Part shown: in pieces, positions 43,151 through 56,600 of the stretch
How positions within the stretch are numbered: the first letter of the stretch is position 1
Layout of the letters: every line of letters begins with the position of its first letter
Assembly (NCBI RefSeq): GCF_009914755.1
Contig: NC_060940.1
DNA from: the human T2T-CHM13v2.0 reference genome, Homo sapiens
Direction: 5' to 3' (one strand)
DNA: 64,000 nucleotides
Program-made: the position numbers and the translations under genes
Notes under the pieces: model-generated
Told to the model about the DNA's origin: nothing
Databases searched by the model: none
The model's input: the letters and a program-made list of their open reading frames with translations, nothing else

Positions 43151-43717
43151 ATCCGTCCCCCCTCAAACTCCTTCCACAGATATTTATAGATAAAAGCTTT
43201 GCCACCTCTGCTGAACACAGCTTCCAACATAGAAAACACACCATTCAGTGTCTTGCTTGTTTTACTGAATCTATCATGCTATACTACTGTGTGGTGAACA
43301 TGCAGGTTATACCATCTGCTATCACAGACGCTGATGAGATGAAAAATCTCATACACGTGGCCTGTTGCAGGTGCATACTGTATATGCAGGATAAATTCCC
43401 AGAAACGGCATTGCTAAGTATCTGCATTTGTGATTTGAGAGATATTGCCAATTTCCACTCCATAAGGTTAATACCAATTTGCACTTCCATCAGCTTTGGA
43501 TGAAAAATTAGTTTGCCCGCATCATTGCCAACACATTAAATTGGATTTATATCATTGGATTTTTACCAATCTGATAGGTGAAAAACAGTGACTCAATGTA
43601 GTCTTAATTTAAATTTGTTATGAAAAAATTTTAATTTATAATGTGTTTAAGGCCTATGTATTTTTCTATGACCGTCTTACTCATATTGTTTTGCTTATTT
43701 TATTTATTTATTTTTTT

Positions 43718-44104
43718 GTGAGCAACATGTCTGTTTATTTCACCTGGGTGCAGGCGGGCTGAGTCCGAAAAGAGAGTCAGCAAAGCGTGCTGGATTATCA
43801 TTAGTTCTTATAGGTTTTGGGATAGGCGGTGAAGTTAAGAGCAATGTTTTGCGGGCAGGGGTGGATCTCACACAGTACATTCTCAAGGGTGGGGAGAATT
43901 ACAAACAACCTGCTTAAGGGTGGGGGAGATTACAAAGTACATTGATCAGTTAGGTGGGGCAGGAACAAATCACAATGGTGGAATGTCATCAGTTAAGGCT
44001 ATTTTTACTTCTTTTGTGGATCTTCAGTTACTTCAGGCCATCTGGATGTATACGTGCAAGTCACAGGGGATGCGATGGCTTGGCTTGGGCTCAGAGGCCT
44101 GACA
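43718..44104 (-). mobile_element. 3' LTR (U3-R only, U5 absent), LTR7B/type II-like
   Basis: Starts TGTCAGGCCTCTGAGCCC on minus at 44104. Carries type II repeats (CCCACCCTTAAG/CCCACCCTTGAG). AATAAA at 43734-43739, then poly(A). PPT adjacent at 44105-44120. Confidence 0.85.
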
Positions 44105-47100
44105 TTCCTGCCGCCTTATATTAATAAGAAAAATCAAAATAGTGTTGAAGTCCTGGGGCGGCGAAAATTTTTGGGGGGTGGTATGGAGAGAGAGTGGGCG
44201 ATGTTTCTCAGGGTTGCTTCAAGCAGGATTAGGGGTGGCGTGGGAACCTAGAGTGGGAGAGATTAAGCTGAAGGAAGATTTTGTGGTAAGGGGTGATATT
44301 GTGGGGTTGTTAGAAGAAACATTTGTTGTGTAGAATTATTGGTGATGGCCTGGATATGATTTTGTATGAATTGAAAAACTAAATGGAATAAGAGAAGGAG
44401 AAAAACCGGTATAAAAGGTCTAAGAATTGGGAAGACCTAGGACATCTGATTAGAGAGTGCCTAAGGAGATTCAGTATAGTCCTGCCAGCAAAGATTATTT
44501 ATTTACTTCAAGAGTTAAGAGTGGCAGTTTGGGGATAGCACGAGGAGATATCAGCTGTGATGGCTTGGAGAAACTGTGTAAACCGGCAGTGTAAACAAGA
44601 GCAGGGCATGTATGAGTAGTTGAGAACGGAGAATAGGAGTATGACTAGACAGAAGATAGTAGGGATGACAAGTTTTTTTGGGGCACAGTCTAAGTTGGTC
44701 TGGTGTCTGGAATGAGACTGGGGCCTAATAAAAAGGAGCGTCTATACAGGAGCTTAAATGGGCTGTACCCCCTGTAGCATTCCGAAGACAGGCCTGAATT
44801 CTGAGAAGGGAAAGTGGTAAAAGTATTGTCCAGTCCTTTTTAAGTTGGTGGCTGAGCTTGGTGAGGTGTGTTTTTAAAAGACCTTTAGTCCATTCTACTT
44901 TTCTTGAAGACGGAGGACCGTAAGGGATATAAAGGTTTCACTGAATACTAAGAGCCTGAAAAACTGCTTGGCTGATTTGACTAATAAAGGCTCGTCTGTT
45001 ATCAGACTGTATAGAGGTGGGAAGGCTAAACTGAGGAATTATGTCTGACAGAAGGGAAGAAATGACTGCGGTGGCCTTCTCAGACCCTGTAGGAAAGGCC
45101 TCTACCTATCCAGTGAAAGTATCTACCTAGACTAAGAGGTATTTTAGTTATCTGACTCAGGGCATGTTGAGTAAAGCTAATTTGCCAGTCCTGGGTGGGG
45201 CAAATCCTCCAGCTTGATGTGTAGAGAAGGGAGGGGGCCTGAATAATCCCTGAGGAGTAGTAGAATAGCAGATGGAACACTGAGAAGTTATTTCCTTGAG
45301 GATAGATTTCCACAATGGAAAGGAAATGAGAGGTTCTAGGAGGCGGGCTAGTGGCTTGTACTATAGCATAGCCTGCCTTTGCTGGTGTGTGGTGATTAGG
45401 CCTGGTGGAACCTCCATCAATAAATCAAGCGTGATCAGGGTGAGGAACAGGAAAGAAGGAAATTTGGGGAAATGGGGTTAATGTCAGGTGGATCTGAGAG
45501 ATACAGTCATGGGGGTCAGGTGTGGTATCAGGAATAATGTGGGAGGCCGGATTGAAGTCTGGGCCAGGAACAACGGTAATTGTGGGAGACTCAACAAAGA
45601 GTGAGTATAGCTGAAGGAGCCGGGAAGCAGAAATTATATGCGTCAGGTATGAGGAAGAAAATAGATTTTGGAAGTTATGAGAAATGTAGAGAGTGAGTTG
45701 AGCATAGTTTGTGATTTTGAGGGCCTCTAAAAGTATTAATGCAGCGGCAGCCGCTGCACGCAGACATGAGGGCTAGGCTAAAACAGTAAGGTCAAGTTGT
45801 TTGGACAGAAAGGTTACAGGGTGTGGTCCTGGCTCTTGTGTAAGAATTCTGACCACGCTAACCATGCCTAGGGAGGAAAGGAATTGTTTTGTAGAAGGTG
45901 CTGGGGTTTGAGAGATCAGTCGGACAGGGAGATCACGTGTGTTTTTATGAGAATTATGCAGAGATAGGTAACAGATGAGGAAGAAATTTGGGCTTGATTG
46001 AAGTAATGGGGGCTGTCTGTGAAGCTTTGCAGCAGTACAGCCTAGGTAATTTGCTGAGCTTGATGGGGGTCAGGGTCAGTCCAAGTGAAAGTGAAGAGAG
46101 GCTGGGATTAACGGTGCAAAGGAATAGTAAAGAAAGCATGTTTGAGATGTAGAACAGAATAATGGGTTATAGAGGCAGGTATTGAGGATAGGAGAGTATA
46201 TGGGTTTGGCACCACGGGGTGGATAGGCAAAACAATTTGGTTGATAAGGCATAGATCCTGAACTAACTTGTAAGGCTTGTCTGGTTTTAGGACAGGTAAA
46301 ATGGGGGAATTGTAAGGAGTTTATAGGCTTTAAAAGGCCATGCTGTAGCAGACGAGTGATAACAGGCTTTAATCTTTTTAAAGCGTGCTGCGGGATGGGA
46401 TATTGGCGTTGAGTGGGGTAAGGGTGATTAGGTTTTAATGAGATGGTAAGGGGTGCATGATCGGTCGCCAAGGAGGGAGTAGAGGTATCTTGTGGGTTAA
46501 GGTGGGGGAATACAAGAGGAGACGCAAAGGAGGCTTTGGATTGGGAAGAAGGGTGGCAATGAGATATAGCTGTAGTCCAGGAATAGTCAGGGAAGCAGAT
46601 AATTTAGTTAGAGTATCTCGGCCTAATAAGGGAACTGGGCAGGTGGGGATAACTAAAAAGGAGTGCTTAAAAGAGTATTGCCTAAGTTGGCACCAGAGTT
46701 GGGGAGTTTTAAGAGGTTTAGAAGCCTGGCCGTCAATACCCACAACAGTTATGGAGGCAAGGGAAACAGGCCCTTGAAAAGAAGGTAATGTGGAGTGGGT
46801 AGCCTCCGTATTGATTAAGAAGGGAAAGGGCTTACCTTCCACTGTGAGAGTTACTCGAAGCTCAGCGTCTGTGATGGTCTACAGGGCTTTCGAGGCGATC
46901 GGGCAGTGTCAGTCTTCAGCCGCTAAGCCGAGAAGATCTGGGAAGGAGTCAGTCAGAGAGCCTTGGGCCAGAGTTCCAGGGGCTCTGGGAGTGGCTGCCA
47001 GGTGAGTTGAACAGTCCGATTTTCAGTGGGGTCCCACACAGATGGGACGCGGCTTAGGAGGAATCCCGGGCTGCCGGCATTCCTTGGCCCAGTGGCCAGA

Positions 47101-48797
47101 TTTCCAGCACATGTAGCAAGCTCCTGTGGGAGGAGGTTCTGGAGGAACGCCTGGCCGCTGCGGTTCAGGAGTTTGGAAGTTCTTGTGTGCTGGAGATGTG
47201 GCTGGGGTTTGTCTCACAGTGGAGGCAAGGAATTGCAACTTTTTTCTATTATTGTACACCTTGAAGGCGAGGTTAATTAAATCCTGTTGTGGGGTTTCAG
47301 GGCTGGAATTTAATTTTTGGAGTTTTATTTAATGTCGGGAGCACATTGGGTAATAAAATGTATTTTGAGAATAAGATGGCCTTTTGACCTTTTAGGGTCT
47401 AGGGCTGTAAAGCGTCTCAAGGTTGCAGCCAAACAAGACATGAACTGGGCTGGATTTTTATACTTGATGAAAAAGAGCCTAAACGCTATCTGATTTGGGA
47501 TAAAGAAAAAGGAGCATTCACCTTGACTATGCCTTTGGCTCCAGCCACCTTTTTAAGAGTGAATTGCTGGGCAGGTGGGGGAGGGCTAGTCACGCAACGA
47601 AACTGTAAGCCCCACCAGGTGTGAGGAGGGGAGGTGATAAAAAGATAGGGTGGAGGAGCGGAGGCTGAGGAAGAATTGGGACCTAGCTCAGCCTGGCGAG
47701 GAGGGGAGAGGTCAGATGGGTCTGTAGAAAAGGAAGATTAGAAAGACTCAGCGACACTTGGGGTTGGGACTGAGGGGACAGGCGGGAGGGAAAGAAGGAA
47801 GATTTGGTACGAGTTGCATTGGGCACAGAGACTAGGAAGGGACTGATGTGTAAAAGAATGCCTGGACGTCAGGCACCTCAGACCTTCTGCGTATTTTACA
47901 ACAAGAATTATTTAGATTTGCAGGATGGAAAAATTCAAAGTGCTATTTTCTGGCTATTTGGAACTACTGTCGAGTTTGTATTGGGATCAAGGGGCATTGC
48001 AGAAGAAAAGGCACTTAGGTTTTAGGTCAGGTGTGAGTTGAAGAGGTTTTAAGTTTTTGAGAACACAGGCTAAGGGAGAAGAAGGAGGAATGGAATGTGG
48101 AATCTTACGTATAGTGAAGGAGGCAAGCCCAGAGAAAAGAGTAGAGACACGGAGAAGGGGTGGAGGGTTCTTGCCCTCCAGAAAAGCAGAGAAGGGGTTG
48201 GGGCACGGAAATAAGGGATTGAGACACAGAGATAAGAGTTTGGGTGTGGAAATAAGCAATTAGGGGGTTCTTGCCCCCTAGGAAAGCGGGACTTGTCGCT
48301 AAGGGTGAAGGAGAAGGGGTTGAGGGGTACTTGCCCCTGCCCCAGGAAAGCAGGACTTGCCGCTAAGGTTGAAGGACCAAGGCAGGCGTCCCTGCATGGT
48401 CTGACACCCTTGAAGCGTGCCTGTATAATCAGAGAGGCGTCCCTGCAATGATTAAACACCAAGGGAAGGCTGCCTTCCCAGTCCGTGACTGGCACCGGAG
48501 TTTTGGGTCCACGGATAAAACATGTCTCCTTCGTCTCTCCCAGAAAATGAAAGGAATTGAAATTAAGAGAAGGGAGAGATTGAAGAGTGGAAAGAAGAAA
48601 GTGGTTGAGGGACAGTGAGAGAGGTTGGAGAAGAGTAAGAAGGGGCCGCTTACCTGATTTAAAATTGGTGATATTCCTTGGGCTGGTCGGTCTGAGGACC
48701 TGAGGTCGTAGGTGGATCTTTCTCATGGAGCAAAGAACAGGAGGACAGGGGATTGATCTCCCAAGGGAGGTCCCCCGATCCGAGTCATGGCACCAAA
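44105..48797 (-). pseudogene. HERV-H internal region B (deleted, env-less type) with defective gag-pro-pol
   Basis: PBS-His 48778-48795; splice donor CAG|GTAAGC 48648-48656; NC zinc knuckle CYMCWKSGHWAKEC (47023-47259); protease FLINTEATHS...LLGRD (46435-46842); frameshifted RT N-terminus (46076-46471). Confidence 0.9.
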
Positions 48798-49251
48798 TTT
48801 CATGCGCGTCCGTGTGAAGAGACCATCAAACAGGCTTTGTGTGAGCAACATGGCTGTTTATTTCACCTGGGTGCAGGCAGGCTGAGTCCGAAAAGAGAGT
48901 CAGTGAAGGGAGATAAGGGTGGGGCCGTTTTATAGGATTTGGGTAGGTAAAGGAAAATTACAGTCAAAGAGGGTTTGTTCTCTGGCGGGCAGGAGTGGGG
49001 GTCGCAAGGTGCTCAGTGGGGGTGTTTTTGAGCCAGGATGAGCCAGGAGAAGGACTTTCACAAGGTAATGTCATCAGTTAAGGCAAGGACCGGCCATTTA
49101 CACTTCTTTTGTGGTGGAATGTCATCAGTTAAGGGGGGGCAGGGCATATTCACTTCTTTTGTGATTCTTCAGTTACTTCAGGCCATCTGGGCGTATATAC
49201 GTGCAAGTCACAGGGGATGTGATGGCTTGGCTTGGGCTCAGAGGCCTGACA
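48798..49251 (-). mobile_element. Complete central LTR7 (type I)
   Basis: 454 bp TGTCAGG...CATGAAA; type I repeats; TATAAAA at 48927-48933 followed by CGGCCCCACCC; AATAAA in R. Confidence 0.9.
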
Positions 49252-52200
49252 GGTTTCACTGAATACTAAGAGCCTGAAAAACTGCTTGGCTGATTTGACT
49301 AATAAAGGCTGGTCTGTTATCAGACTGTATAGAGGGGGGAAGGCTAAACTGAGGAATTATGTCTGACAAAAGGGAAAAAATGACTGTGGTGGCCTTCTCA
49401 GACCCTGTAGGAAAGGTCTTTGCTTATTCAGTGAAAGTGTCTATTTAGACTAAAAGTTATTTTAGTTATCTGACTCAGGGCATGTTGAATAAAGCTAATT
49501 TGCCAGTCCTGGGCGGGGGCAAATCCCTGAGCTTGATGTGTAGGGAAGGGAGGAGGCCTGAATAATCCCTGAGGAGTAGTAGAACAGCAGATGGAACACC
49601 GAGAAGTTATTTCCTTGAGGATAGATTTCCACGATGGAAAGGAAATGAGAGGTTCTGAGAGGCGGGCTAGTGGCTTGTACTATAGCATAGCCTGCCTTTG
49701 CTGGTGTGTGGCGATTAGGCCTGGTGGAACTGCCATCAATAAATCAAGCGTGATCAGGGTGAGGAACAGGAAAGAAGGAAATTTGGGGAAATGGGGTTAA
49801 TGTCAGGTGGATCAGAGAGATACAGTCATGGGGGTCAGGTGTGGTATCAGGAATAATGTGGGGGGCCAGATTGAAGTCCGGGCCAGGAACAATGGTAATT
49901 GTGGGACTTAAAGAGTGAGTACAGCTGAAGGAGCCGGGGAGCAGAAAGTATATGCTTCAGGTATGAGGAAGAAAATAGATTTTGGAAGTTATGAGAAATG
50001 TAGAGAGTGAGTTGAGCATAGTTTGCGATTTTTAGGGCCTCTAAAAGTATTAATGCAGCGGCACCCGCTGTATGCAGACATGAGGGCTAGGCTAAAACAT
50101 TAAGGTCAAATTGTTTGGACAGAAAGGCTACAGGGTGCGGTCCTGGCTCTTGTATAAGAATTCTGACCACACTAACCATACCTAGGAAGAAAAGGAGTTG
50201 TTTTGTAAGGGATTGAGGTTTGGGGGATTAATCGGACACGAGCAGCAGGGGGAGCACCTGTGTTTTTATGAAGAATTATGCTGAGATAGGTAACAGATGA
50301 GGATGAAATTTGGGCTTGATTGAAGTAATGGGGGCTGTCTGTGACGCCTTGCAGCAGTACAGCCCAGGTAATTTGCTGAGCCTAATGGGTGTCAGGGTCA
50401 GTCCAAGTGAAAGCGAAGAGAGGCTGGGATGATGGGAGCAAAGGAATAGTAAAGAAAGCATGCTTGAGATCCAGAACATAATAATGGATTGTGGAGGGAG
50501 GTATGGAGGATAGGAGAGTATATGGGTTTGACACCATAGGGTGGATAGGCAAAACAATTTGGTTGATAAGGCACAGATCCTGAACTAACTTGTAAGGCTT
50601 GTCTGGTTTTAGGACAGGCAAAATGGGGGAATTGTAAGGAGAGTTTATAGGCTTTAAAAGGCCATGCTGTAGCAGGCGAGTGATAACAGGCTTTAATCCT
50701 TTCAAAGCATGCTGTGGGATGGGATATTGGCATTGAACAGGGTAAGGGTGATAAGGTTTTAATGAGATGGTAAGGGGTGCATGATCAGTCGCCAAGGAGG
50801 GAGTAGAGGTATCTTATACTTGTGGGTTAAGGTGGGGGAATACAAGAGGAGGATGCAAAGGAGGCTTTGGATTGGGAAGAAGGGTGGCAATGAGATGTAG
50901 CTGTAGTCCAGGAATAGTCAGGGAAGCAGATAATTTAGTTAAAGTGTCTCGGCCTAATAAGGGAACTGGGCAGGTGGGGATAACTAAAAGGAGTGCTTAA
51001 AAGAGTATCATCTAAGTTGGCACCAGAGTTGGGGAGTTCTAAGAGGTTTAGAAGCCTGGCCGTCAATACTCACAACAGTTATGGAGGCAAGGGAAACAGG
51101 CCCTTGAAAAGAAGGTAATGTGGAGTGGGTAGCCTCCGTATTGATTAAGGCGACGGACTTACCTTCCACTGTGAGAGTTACTCGAAGCTCGGCGTCTGTG
51201 ATGGTCTACGGGGCTTTCGAGGTGATCAGGCAGCGTCAGTCTTCAGCCGCTAAGCCGAGAAGGAGTCAGTCAGAGAGCCTTGGGCCAGAGTTCCAGGGGC
51301 TCTGGGAGTGGCTGCCAGGTGAGTTGAACAGTCCGATTTTCAGTGGGGTCCCACACAGATGGGACGCGGCTTAGGAGGAATCCCGGGCTGCCGGCATTCC
51401 TTGGCCCAGTGGCCAGATTTCCGGCACGTGTAGCAAGCTCCTGGGGAAGGAGGTTCTGGAGGAATACCTGGCTGCTGTGGTTCAGGCATTTGGAAGTTCT
51501 TGTGTGCTGGAGATGTGGCTGGGGTTTGTCTCACAGTGGAGGCAAGGAATTGCAACTTTTTTTCTGTTACTGTACACCTTGAAGGTGAGGTTAATTAAAT
51601 CCTGTTGTGGGGTTTGAGGGCCAGATTCCAATTTTTGGAATTTTATTTAATGTCGGGAGCACATTGGGTAATAAAATGTATTTTGAGAATAAGATGGCCT
51701 TTTGACCTTTTAGGGTCTAGGGCTGTAAAGCGTCTCAAGGTTGCAGCCAAACAAGTCATGAACTGGGCTGGATTTTTATATTTGATGAAAAAGAGCCTAA
51801 ACGCTATCTGATTTGGGATAAAGAAAAAGGAGCATTCACCTTGACTATGCCTTTAGCTTCAGCCACCTTTTTAAGAATAAATTGCTGGACAGGTGGGGAA
51901 GGGCTAGTCACTGAACGAAACTATAAGCCAGACAGGGTGTGAGGAGGGGAGGTGATAAAAGGATTATAGGGTGGAGGAGGGGAGGCTGAGGAAGAATTGG
52001 GACCTAGCTTGGCCTGGAGAGGAGGGGAGAGGTCAGATGGGTCTGTAGAAAAGGAAGATTAGAAAGACTCAGTGACGCTTGGGGTTGGGACTGAGGGGAC
52101 AGGCGGGAGGGAAAGAAGGAAGATTTGGTACGAGTTGCATTGGGCACAGAGACTAGGAAGGGACTGATGTGTAAAAGAATGCCTGGACATCAGGCACCTC

Positions 52201-53201
52201 AGACCATTTGTCTATTTTACAGCAAGAATTATTTAGATTTTGCAGGATGGAAAAATTCAAAGTGCCATTTTTTGGCTATTTGGAACTACTGTTGAGTTTG
52301 TATTGGGGTCAAGCAGCATTGCAGAAGAAAATAAGGCGTTTAGGTTTTAGGTCAGGTGTGAGTTGAAGAGGTTTTAAGTTCGTGAGAAGTCAGGCTAAGG
52401 GAGAAGGAGGAATGGATGGTGGAAGGTTGCCCATAGTGAAGGAGGCAAACCCAGAGAAAAGAGAGCATAGAGATATGGAGGGAAGGGGTTCGGGGGTTCT
52501 TACCCTCCAGAAAAGTGGGAAGGGGGGTCGGGGCATGGAAATAAGGGATTGGGGCACAGAAATAAGAGGTTGGGGTGCGGAAATAAGGGATTGGGGGTTC
52601 TTGCCCCCTAGAAAAGCGGGACTTGCCGCTAAGGGCGAAGGAGAAGGGGTTGAGGGGTACTTGCCCCTTCCCCAGAAAAGCAGAGAAGGGGTAGAGAGGG
52701 AGAGAAGGAGTTGGGGAACTTGCCCCTCCCCCAGAAAAGCGGGACTTGCTGCTAAGGGTGAAGGACCAAGGCAGGCATCCCTGCGTGGTCTGACACCTTT
52801 GAAACGTGGGTGAATAATCAGAGAGGTGTCCCTGCAATGATTAAACACCAAGGGAAGGCTGCCTTCCCAGTCCGTGACAGGCGCTGGAGTTTTGGGTCCA
52901 CCGATAAAACGTGTCTGCTTTGTCTCTCCCAGAAAATGAAAGGAATTGAAATTAAGAGAAGGGAGAGATTGAAGTGTGACGCCAAGATTGAAAGGAGAAA
53001 GAGGTTGAGGGATAGTGAGGGAGATTGGAAAAGAGAGTAAAAAGTGGCCACTTACCGGATTTGAAATTGGTGAGATGTTTCTTGGGCTTGTCTGTCTAAG
53101 GACCTGAGGTGGTAGGTGGATCTTTCTCACAGAGCAAAGAGCAGGAGGACAGGGGATTGATCTCCCAAGGGAGGTCCCCCGATCCGAGTCACGGCACCGA
53201 A
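49252..53201 (-). pseudogene. HERV-H internal region A, 3'-truncated at the central LTR, with defective gag-pro-pol
   Basis: PBS-His 53182-53199 (TGG>CGG); donor CCG|GTAAGT 53050-53058; NC CYTCRKSGHWAKEC (51340-51555); RT N-terminus SPYNSPILPVLKP...LVQDL...LDLKHAFFTIPL (50382-50795). Confidence 0.9.
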
Positions 53202-53309
53202 TTTCATGCGCGTCCATGAGAAGAGACCACCACACAGGCTTTGTGTGACCAACATGGCTGTTTATTTCACCTGGGTGCAGGTGGGCTGAGTCCAAAAAGA
53301 GAGTCAGCC
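53202..53309 (-). mobile_element. 5' LTR remnant (R-U5 only, U3 absent)
   Basis: Minus strand reads G-GCTGACTCTCTTTTTGGACTCAGCCC...CATGAAA, directly inside the TSD. Confidence 0.9.
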
Positions 53310-53324
53310 TGTTTTGCTTATTTT

Positions 53325-56600
<3,276 letters not shown>

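What the first reader, a model, noticed from the sequence alone, without database searches (positions are those of the whole stretch)
43687..53324. 9.6-kb HERV-H with the ends of an L1-retroposed RNA, not of a provirus
Seen, on the minus strand: (1) the 5' end lacks U3 and starts at GCTGACTCTC in R (53308). (2) The 3' end lacks U5 and stops ~16 nt after AATAAA (43718). (3) A decayed poly(A) follows (43702-43717). (4) A perfect 15-bp TSD, TGTTTTGCTTATTTT, lies at 43687-43701 and 53310-53324. (5) The target reads TT/AAAAA on minus. (6) Both major splice donors are retained, so the RNA was unspliced. Established: integrase gives complete TG..CA LTRs with a ~5-bp TSD, whereas R-U5...U3-R-poly(A) with a long TSD is the L1 ORF2p TPRT signature, well known for HERV-W processed copies and much less described for HERV-H. 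Inference: HERV-H genomic RNA was mobilised in trans by L1 into an old L1M in IL34 intron 1.
Basis: partly seen in the sequence, partly recalled or inferred. Interest (0 to 1): 0.85.

Follow-up and report, generated by a model that had tools for sequence, protein, structure and literature searches.

The report
L1-copied HERV-H, actually two nested units
This stretch is an old endogenous-retrovirus (HERV-H) RNA that was pasted into the genome by the LINE-1 machinery rather than by the virus's own integrase, but it is a composite of two different HERV-H units joined by a complete internal LTR, and it is one of dozens of such LINE-1-made HERV-H copies in the genome.

Summary
The end features are real. 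On the minus strand the element starts at the first base of R (53308), after one extra G. It ends at the R cleavage site (43717), followed by a 15-nt A-rich tail. An exact 15-bp duplication found nowhere else in the window flanks it, at a TTTT/AAAAA target. That is the LINE-1 signature, not an integrase one.

The "9.6-kb HERV-H genome" reading is wrong. There are two HERV-H units, 90% alike, each with gag, zinc-knuckle, protease and integrase remnants. A complete U3-R-U5 LTR (49251-48796) separates them.

- The internal LTR and the 3' LTR carry different U3 variants.
- Unit A stops inside its integrase remnant, exactly at the first base of the internal LTR. That junction is unique in the genome.
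- Unit A and the 3' U3-R both point to one chr19 provirus as closest relative. Unit B's relatives carry the other U3 variant.

Best reading: an L1-made retrocopy of one HERV-H RNA, interrupted by a second HERV-H provirus whose 3' end was lost. Whether that happened here or in the source locus is open.

The class recurs: 19 of 47 "G + R-start" sites lack U3, and about 44 R ends are followed by A-runs. Held reviews call HERV-W the sole LINE-copied group. The "L1M" host repeat is unconfirmed. Interest is moderate.

The parts
53310..53324 (-). 5' target-site duplication (AAAATAAGCAAAACA on the minus strand), preceded by TTTT+A
   Evidence: exact 15/15 match to 43687-43701; only two copies in the window
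53309..53309 (-). extra G between the duplication and R, templated by neither the target nor the LTR
   Evidence: the 3' copy of the duplication is followed by A, and U3 ends in T before GCTGAC. The same extra G is seen at chr5, chr22 and chr14 retrocopies
53200..53308 (-). 5' R-U5 without U3 (R 53308-53244)
   Evidence: the start is about 31 nt downstream of the TATAAG position in the complete LTRs
53182..53198 (-). primer-binding-site-like motif of unit A
   Evidence: motif GGTGCCGTGACTCGGAT; reading it as a tRNA-His PBS is recalled, not tested
49252..53181 (-). unit A internal region: leader donor GGTAAG 53056-53051; Gag_p30 51852-51646; zf-CCHC 51594-51343; RVP 50996-50817; rve fragment 49423-49259. 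It stops inside the integrase remnant
   Evidence: only the zf-CCHC hit passes Pfam's cut-off, the other three are below it
48796..49251 (-). complete internal LTR (U3 49251-48905 starting TGTCAGG, TATA 48935-48928, R 48904-48840, U5 to 48796). Its U3 variant is unlike the 3' LTR's
   Evidence: 95.2% to the 3' LTR of the chr9:111.85M provirus; overlaps the RefSeq enhancers 48669-49764 in the hub's table
44105..48795 (-). unit B: PBS-like 48794-48778; donor-like 48656-48650; Gag_p30 47552-47328; zf-CCHC 47328-47026; RVP 46878-46438; rve fragment 45105-44941; then an 829-bp tail (44932-44105) that unit A lacks
   Evidence: only RVP passes Pfam's cut-off
43717..44104 (-). 3' U3-R without U5 (U3 44104-43782, TATA 43813-43806, R 43781-43717, AATAAA 43739-43734)
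43702..43716 (-). decayed poly(A) tail (AAAAAATAAATAAAT)
43687..43701 (-). 3' target-site duplication

Best explanation
A polyadenylated HERV-H RNA ran from the LTR transcription start (R) to the R cleavage site. It belonged to the lineage whose closest surviving relative is a provirus at chr19:49.88 Mb. LINE-1 ORF2p nicked a TTTT/AAAA site and reverse-transcribed the RNA in place. That gave R-U5...U3-R-poly(A), a 15-bp duplication and one cap-derived extra G.

The insert is not that RNA alone. A second HERV-H provirus, with a different U3 variant, sits in the integrase remnant of the first. Its 5' LTR is intact and begins exactly at TGTCAGG. Its 3' LTR and the neighbouring tail were lost, most simply by recombination between the two 829-bp tails that lay as direct repeats. 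I favour nesting and deletion at this locus after the L1 event. The same events in the source locus, followed by read-through transcription, are the main rival.

Shown: the ends, the duplication, the dimer, the complete internal LTR, the two U3 variants, the unique junction, and the lineage links.
Inferred: L1 as the agent, the cap origin of the G, the order of events, and the recombination.

The locus has no intact retroviral gene. Its only complete promoter-bearing LTR is the internal one.
For: Ends
- Searches show the R start, the R end, the tail and the duplication; about 0.001 such 15-mer pairs are expected by chance.
- TATAAG lies 31 nt upstream of the R start in the 3' LTR, and 30 nt upstream in the internal LTR.

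Recurrence of both boundaries
- 19 of 47 genome sites matching G + R-start have no U3 upstream; 27 have U3 and 1 is an inverted R-R oddity. The reversed-pattern control gave 0.
- 11 of the 12 such loci I could test continue into HERV-H internal sequence.
- The R-end + A7 pattern gave 10 exact hits and 55 hits at up to 2 mismatches, with 0 in the control. By my reading of the matched strings, 44 of the 55 are A-runs and 11 are ordinary U5 variants.
- 8 loci have both ends on one strand within 0.8-9.6 kb.
- The 3 others examined have duplications of 16, 13 (one mismatch) and 12 bp.
- An R-only copy at chr14 has a 13-bp duplication and an extra G. It was found through its 3' end, so it was not selected for the G.

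Composite structure
- Gag_p30, zf-CCHC, RVP and rve occur twice, 4.3 kb apart: 8 of 57 ORF pieces hit, and 2 of those pass Pfam's cut-off.
- Self-alignment gives 90.2% identity over 4083 bases.
- The internal LTR is complete.
- Unit A stops at ...AGTGAAACC directly before TGTCAGG, whereas 11 of 11 other HERV-H copies continue TTT[A/G]TATCC.
- The 33-nt junction has no other genome match at up to 3 mismatches.

Lineage links
- Unit A's best match by identity is chr19:49876396-49880387, at 94-95%.
- That provirus's LTRs are 97.2% (3') and 96.7% (5') identical to our 3' U3-R.
- They are the two best of 40 scored hits (1188 candidates) for the variant-specific 209 bp of our U3.
- At 5 of 5 sites where the chr19 LTRs differ, ours has the 3'-LTR state.
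- 21 of 23 non-self relatives of unit B stop aligning where the U3 variants part, and 0 of 23 appear in the list.
- All 4 provirus LTR pairs captured in my sample are concordant in U3 variant.
- The chr19 provirus has about 795 bp between the integrase point and its 3' LTR, so it carries no nested insert.
Against: - No outgroup or empty-site sequence was available, so neither the single-event insertion nor the order of events is shown directly.
- Internal HERV-H sequence is not diagnostic of lineage in my sample. No crossover could be mapped, and only 2 U3 columns separated the variants. The A/3'-LTR link therefore rests on best-hit coincidence, not on a tree.
- Our 3' U3 has 6 unique changes against 0 unique to the chr19 3' LTR. 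That argues against chr19 being the direct source.
- One close relative of unit A (chrX:117.70M, 93%) has neither U3 variant.
- Genome searches scored only 24-40 of more than 1000 candidates, so closer relatives may exist.
- The in-situ order needs three events in one 5-kb target.
- The extra G was partly selected by my own search pattern.
Confidence: 0.5

Rival explanations
1. One read-through RNA from a composite source. Nesting of the second provirus and loss of its 3' LTR happened in the source provirus. Transcription from that provirus's 5' LTR ran through the internal LTR's poly(A) signal to the 3' LTR. L1 then copied the whole 9.6-kb RNA in one event.
For: - One duplication and one tail flank the whole 9.6 kb.
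- The internal LTR is seamless U3-R-U5 with no internal A-run or second duplication.
- The lineage links between unit A and the 3' LTR fit this model as well as the in-situ one.
Against: - No locus in this assembly has the A/internal-LTR junction at up to 3 mismatches in 33 nt, so the source would have to be lost.
- It needs read-through of a complete internal LTR 4.4 kb from the start.
- The 7 other start-to-tail copies are 0.8-6.0 kb long and none is a dimer.
- The closest relative of the outer parts has no nested insert.
Confidence: 0.3
2. Template switch during L1 reverse transcription. ORF2p copied one HERV-H RNA to its 5' R, then jumped by R homology to the 3' R of a second HERV-H RNA and copied that too. 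The result is a dimer with a rebuilt LTR in the middle, like retroviral strand transfer.
For: - The middle LTR is exactly U3 + one R + U5.
- The two units differ by 10% and carry different U3 variants, as two RNAs would.
Against: - It predicts that unit A goes with the internal U3 variant and unit B with the 3' variant. The best-hit links point the other way.
- It leaves unexplained why unit A's body stops in the integrase remnant exactly at the first base of U3.
- None of the 7 other start-to-tail copies is a dimer.
Confidence: 0.07
3. An ordinary integrase-made provirus or tandem provirus whose outer U3 and U5 were lost by later deletions. The 15-mer repeat is chance.
For: HERV-H loci often carry deletions. 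No outgroup was checked.
Against: - Both deletions would have to end exactly at the transcription start and the cleavage site.
- One would have to leave an A-run and the other an exact 15-bp repeat (about 0.001 expected).
- The same two boundaries recur at 18 and about 43 other sites.
Confidence: 0.02

Closest known systems
HERV-W processed pseudogenes made by LINE-1 (Pavlicek et al. 2002; Grandi et al. 2016, PMC5016936, passages read)
   Same: 5' LTR reduced to R-U5, 3' LTR reduced to U3-R, poly(A) tail, long target duplication at an L1-type site, and colinearity with retroviral RNA.
   Different: - A different HERV group.
- Here such copies are a small minority of HERV-H. The size of the HERV-W share is recalled, not read.
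- This copy holds a complete internal LTR and a second unit, which is not part of the HERV-W description I read.
- Pavlicek 2002 itself (PMC155283) was not held, so I could not see what it says about HERV-H.
Retrotransposed HERV-K(HML-2) rec-like mRNA at 2q32.1 (Schmitt et al. 2013, PMC3590776, passages read)
   Same: A single HERV RNA copied by L1, with an A stretch and a 13-nt duplication. That paper also states that retrotransposed HERV-H and HERV-W elements "have been described before", citing Goodchild 1995 and Pavlicek 2002.
   Different: That copy is spliced and belongs to another group. Ours keeps the leader donor and gag-to-integrase remnants, and it is composite.
Spliced HERV-H copies in genomic DNA (Goodchild, Freeman and Mager 1995; not held, seen only as cited in PMC3590776 and PMC11998498)
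   Same: HERV-H RNA re-entering the genome by reverse transcription.
   Different: As described in PMC11998498, the spliced form was found among cloned HERV-H proviruses. Whether those copies have L1 hallmarks I could not check. The copies found here are defined by R start, R end, A tail and a 12-16-bp duplication.
Cellular processed pseudogenes and full-length L1 insertions with an untemplated 5' G (recalled; no call)
   Same: Start at the transcription start with an extra G ascribed to the cap, a poly(A) tail, and a 7-20-bp duplication.
   Different: The template here is a retroviral RNA.

Membership tests
L1-made processed pseudogene of a retroviral RNA | 5' end at the first base of R, no U3 | tested here: met
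   the same start at 18 other loci
L1-made processed pseudogene of a retroviral RNA | 3' end at the R cleavage site, no U5, followed by poly(A) | tested here: met
   the tail is decayed to 15 nt
L1-made processed pseudogene of a retroviral RNA | Target-site duplication of about 7-20 bp abutting both ends, at a TT/AAAA-like site | tested here: met
   exact 15 bp; TTTT then AAAAA
L1-made processed pseudogene of a retroviral RNA | Insert colinear with one RNA | tested here: not met
   two units and a complete internal LTR. This is met only if a later nested insertion, or a read-through composite RNA, is assumed
L1-made processed pseudogene of a retroviral RNA | Empty site with one copy of the duplication in a species or allele lacking the insert | not testable with these tools
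   No primate genomes were available. As a substitute, 1 of 6 paralogues of the flanking old repeat matches both flanks colinearly (88-bp gap against 118 bp expected), which is weak
Integrase-made HERV-H provirus (outer ends) | Complete TG...CA LTRs at both ends with a short (about 5 bp) duplication | tested here: not met
Integrase-made HERV-H provirus (internal LTR + unit B, nested) | LTR starting at TG directly abutting foreign sequence; a matching 3' LTR of the same variant ending in CA; a short duplication | tested here: inconclusive
   The 5' LTR end is exact. The matching 3' LTR and the duplication are absent, and the LTR present at the 3' side is another variant
L1M host repeat at the target | Similarity of the flanks to L1 sequence or L1 proteins | tested here: inconclusive
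   19 weak paralogues (66-86% identity).: 0 of 15 flank ORF pieces hit an L1 domain. No repeat library was available

The most novel reading that the evidence does not exclude
HERV-H is a second HERV group that LINE-1 copied again and again. The genome holds at least 18 independent copies that start at the transcription start, about 40 R + poly(A) ends, and R-only mini-copies. No paper I could read describes this class, and reviews call HERV-W the sole such group. This locus would be its most complex member. A bolder variant that is not excluded: the dimer arose when L1 ORF2p made a retrovirus-like R-to-R template jump.
Probability: 0.45. Interest if true: 0.6.

Novelty: new member of a known kind. 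Interest (0 to 1): 0.45.

Why it matters
- It shows with exact boundaries that HERV-H RNAs, which are abundant in early embryos and pluripotent cells, were substrates of LINE-1 in the germ line. "HERV-W only" is therefore too strong.
- The recurrent first base, with its extra G, marks the LTR7 transcription start. The recurrent last base marks the cleavage site.
- HERV-H censuses and LTR-divergence dating that treat all copies as proviruses will misread these copies, because their two R regions come from one RNA.
- At this locus the U3-less retrocopy should be promoterless. The nested complete LTR7, listed by RefSeq as enhancers, and an antisense IL34 alternative exon show how such a composite can still feed regulatory sequence to a cytokine gene.

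Tried and rejected
1. Paralogue "empty site". A search with 591 bp of one flank was swamped by an Alu at 53576-53890. The other flank gave only weak paralogues that stop short of the duplication. Of 6 paralogues fetched, 1 matched both flanks. This is suggestive only.

2. L1 identity of the flanks by Pfam gave nothing.

3. Post-insertion R-to-R unequal crossover of a monomer. Rejected, because it predicts that the middle U3 equals the 3' U3, and they are different variants. It also does not explain the integrase/U3 junction.

4. Two successive L1 insertions. Rejected, because there is no internal A-run or second duplication.

5. Mapping a crossover in the 829-bp tail by sliding identity and by diagnostic sites. 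There was no signal; internal sequence is too uniform among the 9-12 copies held.

6. A tree of 5' leaders labelled by U3 variant. Dropped, because all 4 loci held with the 3'-LTR variant (L006, L019, L032, L038) had no internal sequence downstream.

7. Full 10-kb fetches of the 18 other start-site copies, to find their 3' ends and duplications. Only 3 of the 7 other paired copies were examined end to end.

8. Papers not held: Pavlicek 2002 (PMC155283), Jern 2005 (PMC1091717) and Goodchild 1995.

10. No supplements were consulted.
Full report
**1. The observation**

Read on the minus strand, the 5' junction is ...GTAATTTTAAAAATAAGCAAAACA G GCTGACTCTC.... The 3' junction is ...AAATAAACAGACATGTTGCTCACA AAAAAATAAATAAAT AAAATAAGCAAAACA ATATGAG....

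- The 15-mer at 43687-43701 and 53310-53324 is identical. It has no third copy on either strand of the window and does not extend on either side.
- Identical 15-mer pairs occur at 8.2e-6 per position pair in this repeat-rich window. About 0.001 is therefore expected within 11 x 11 offsets of the two boundaries.
- Aligned with complete LTRs from elsewhere in the genome and with the internal LTR, the 5' piece begins exactly where U3 ends, and the 3' piece ends exactly where U5 begins.
- TATAAG lies 31 nt upstream of that first base in the 3' LTR, and 30 nt upstream in the internal LTR.
- AATAAA lies 17 nt before the last base.
- The G at 53309 is templated neither by the target (the 3' copy of the duplication is followed by A) nor by the LTR (U3 ends in T).

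**2. The insert is a composite**

Pfam was run on 57 stop-to-stop pieces of the minus strand. It hit Gag_p30, zf-CCHC, RVP and rve twice each, in the same order, 4.3 kb apart. That is 8 of 57 pieces. Only one RVP hit and one zf-CCHC hit pass Pfam's cut-off. No reverse-transcriptase or env domain was found.

Self-alignment shows that 53307-49251 matches 48903-44933 at 90.2% over 4083 bases. Between the two units lies a complete LTR at 49251-48796. It starts TGTCAGG and has a TATA box, R and U5, followed by a primer-binding-site-like motif.

Two further points matter.

- The U3 of this internal LTR is a different variant from the U3 of the 3' LTR. They part about 129 nt into U3 and rejoin at R.
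- Unit A stops inside its integrase remnant at ...AGTGAAACC and runs straight into the first base of the LTR. In contrast, 11 of 11 other HERV-H copies continue TTT[A/G]TATCC.
- Unit B has a further 829 bp before its U3.
- Among 40 scored genome matches (2285 candidates), the 39 non-self matches cover only the internal side of that junction.
- A search with the 33-nt junction at up to 3 mismatches finds only this locus.

An LTR terminus butted onto unrelated retroviral sequence is what integrase leaves. So a second HERV-H provirus was inserted into the first, here or in the source.

**3. Which parts belong together**

- Unit A's best match by identity is a provirus at chr19:49876396-49880387 (94-95%). 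Next come chr7:34.44M (93-94%), chrX:117.70M (93%) and chr6:128.04M (91%). Only 36 of 2703 candidates were scored.
- The chr19 LTRs carry the same U3 variant as our 3' LTR: 97.2% for its 3' LTR and 96.7% for its 5' LTR.
- With the variant-specific 209 bp of our U3 as query, the chr19 3' and 5' LTRs are the two best of 40 scored hits (1188 candidates). Both chr6:128.04M LTRs are also listed.
- The chr7:34.44M provirus also has this variant at its 3' end, at 90.7%. The chrX copy has neither variant.
- At 5 of 5 sites where the two chr19 LTRs differ, our U3 has the 3'-LTR state. That is expected if the RNA's U3 came from such a 3' LTR.
- However, ours also has 6 unique changes against none unique to the chr19 3' LTR. 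So chr19 is better called the closest surviving relative than the source.
- Of 23 non-self relatives of unit B (92-94%), 21 stop aligning at the point where the U3 variants part, one runs through and one ends earlier. None of the 23 is in the list.
- The internal LTR is 95.2% identical to the 3' LTR of one such provirus.
- All 4 provirus LTR pairs caught in my sample are concordant in variant.

Together this says that unit A plus the 3' U3-R are one RNA's two ends. The internal LTR plus most of unit B are a foreign, nested provirus that lacks its own 3' LTR.

I could not place the crossover. Sliding identity and diagnostic sites show that internal sequence is too uniform among the copies held.

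**4. Mechanism**

Shown:
- The ends, the tail, the duplication and the target motif.

Inferred from the established L1 mechanism (target-primed reverse transcription):
- ORF2p nicked TTTT/AAAA, primed on the poly(A) tail, and copied the RNA to its capped 5' end. That added the G.

For the composite I rank three routes.

- (a) An L1 retrocopy of a roughly 5.2-kb RNA came first. A provirus then integrated into it, and the provirus's 3' LTR was lost by recombination between the two 829-bp tails. This needs no read-through and no lost source. It also fits the chr19 relative, which has about 795 bp between the integrase point and its LTR and so carries no insert. Odds about 0.5.
- (b) The same nesting and deletion happened in a source provirus that is now gone. 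Read-through of the internal LTR followed, and one 9.6-kb RNA was copied. Odds about 0.3.
- (c) An R-to-R template jump by ORF2p joined two RNAs. This predicts the opposite pairing of bodies and U3 variants and does not explain the integrase/U3 junction. Odds about 0.07.

A provirus that merely lost its ends by deletion is nearly excluded.

**5. The class**

The window's own assembly could be searched.

- The pattern G + first 26 nt of R has 47 exact matches, with 0 for the reversed control.
- Reading the upstream 80 nt of all 47: 27 have U3 ending in a T-to-G variant, 1 is an inverted R-R junction, and 19 (including this locus and a duplicated chr7 pair) have unrelated, mostly A-rich flanks.
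- Of the 12 such loci with 1.5 kb held downstream, 11 continue into HERV-H internal sequence.
- The pattern R end + A7 has 10 exact matches, and 55 at up to 2 mismatches, with 0 for the control. By my reading of the matched strings, 44 are A-runs and 11 are ordinary U5 variants. Some of the 44 are chr9 pericentromeric duplicates. A CCTTG variant among them may belong to a sub-group I did not identify.
- Eight loci pair a U3-less start with an A-run end on the same strand. These are this locus (9.6 kb), chr8:116.94M (4.46 kb), chr5:12.43M (4.27 kb), chr22:28.20M (2.8 kb), chr8:89.87M (5.3 kb), chr10:110.45M (5.5 kb), chr16:68.77M (6.0 kb) and chr15:53.52M (0.8 kb).
- The three I could read end to end are colinear with HERV-H, with internal deletions. 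Their duplications are 16, 13 (one mismatch) and 12 bp. An extra G is present in two of them; in the third the G lies inside the duplication.
- A chr14 copy consists of R alone, with a 13-bp duplication, a tail of about 30 nt and an extra G. It was found through its 3' end, so its G was not selected by my pattern.

The counts are lower bounds in one respect, because copies without the G or with mutated R are missed. They are not corrected for segmental duplicates.

**6. Literature**

Seven full-text searches were run, and passages were read in 13 papers.

- Magiorkinis et al. [quoted passage not shown]
- Thomas et al. 2018 (PMC6298018, passage) removed LINE-made copies for HERV-W only.
- Vargiu et al. 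2016 (PMC4724089, passages) did not separate processed pseudogenes from proviruses.
- Schmitt et al. 2013 (PMC3590776, passage) says retrotransposed HERV-H and HERV-W elements were described before, citing Goodchild 1995 and Pavlicek 2002.

None of the passages I read, in papers drawn from those listings, describes a HERV-H class with these hallmarks. The three most relevant older papers were not held, and no supplements were read. I therefore cannot say the class is unpublished.

**7. Surroundings**

- The flanks are an old interspersed repeat: 19 weak paralogues at 66-86% identity, and 1 of 6 fetched paralogues is colinear with both flanks. Its family is unproven.
- An Alu lies at 53576-53890.
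- The element is antisense to IL34.
- By the hub's table, RefSeq enhancers at 48669-49764 cover the internal LTR.
- An IL34 alternative exon (51181-51318, plus strand) lies inside unit A. It has no AG before it and CAG|GTGAGT after it, as a first exon would.

**8. Verdict**

The end signature is real, and L1 is the well-supported agent. The "single 9.6-kb genomic RNA" reading and the L1M host are not supported as stated. The locus is a new, unusually complex member of a known kind of element, and it belongs to a HERV-H class that is larger than the literature I could read suggests.

Noticed in passing
window 51181-51318 (+): The IL34 alternative exon from the hub's table lies inside unit A, antisense to the HERV-H gag/protease remnants. 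No AG precedes it and CAG|GTGAGT follows, so it looks like a first exon started inside the retrocopy.
   Followed up: partly
window 48669-49764: The two RefSeq enhancer features cover the complete internal LTR (49251-48796). This is the only LTR at this locus that keeps its U3 promoter together with a downstream unit.
   Followed up: partly
L016 (G000:C14:33487232-33487260, minus): A retrocopy made of R alone (start to cleavage site), with an A tail of about 30 nt, a 13-bp duplication and an extra G. It implies short start-to-poly(A) transcripts from a single LTR.
   Followed up: partly
L029 (G000:C3:90149543): R is preceded by a reverse-complemented copy of R (an inverted R-R junction) instead of U3 or a flank.
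   Followed up: no
G000:C4:95602699-95603063 and query positions 713-783 of unit A (about window 52596-52526): Many relatives break their alignment at this stretch of the leader, and one chr4 copy holds many tandem copies of it. This points to a variable tandem repeat in the HERV-H leader.
   Followed up: no
G000:C7:144897949 and C7:145067215: Two U3-less HERV-H starts have identical flanks in opposite orientation about 170 kb apart. This looks like an inverted segmental duplication carrying one retrocopy.
   Followed up: no
window 53576-53890: An Alu (87-92% identical to the full-length Alu matches) lies 250 bp from the 5' junction and dominates any search with that flank.
   Followed up: yes
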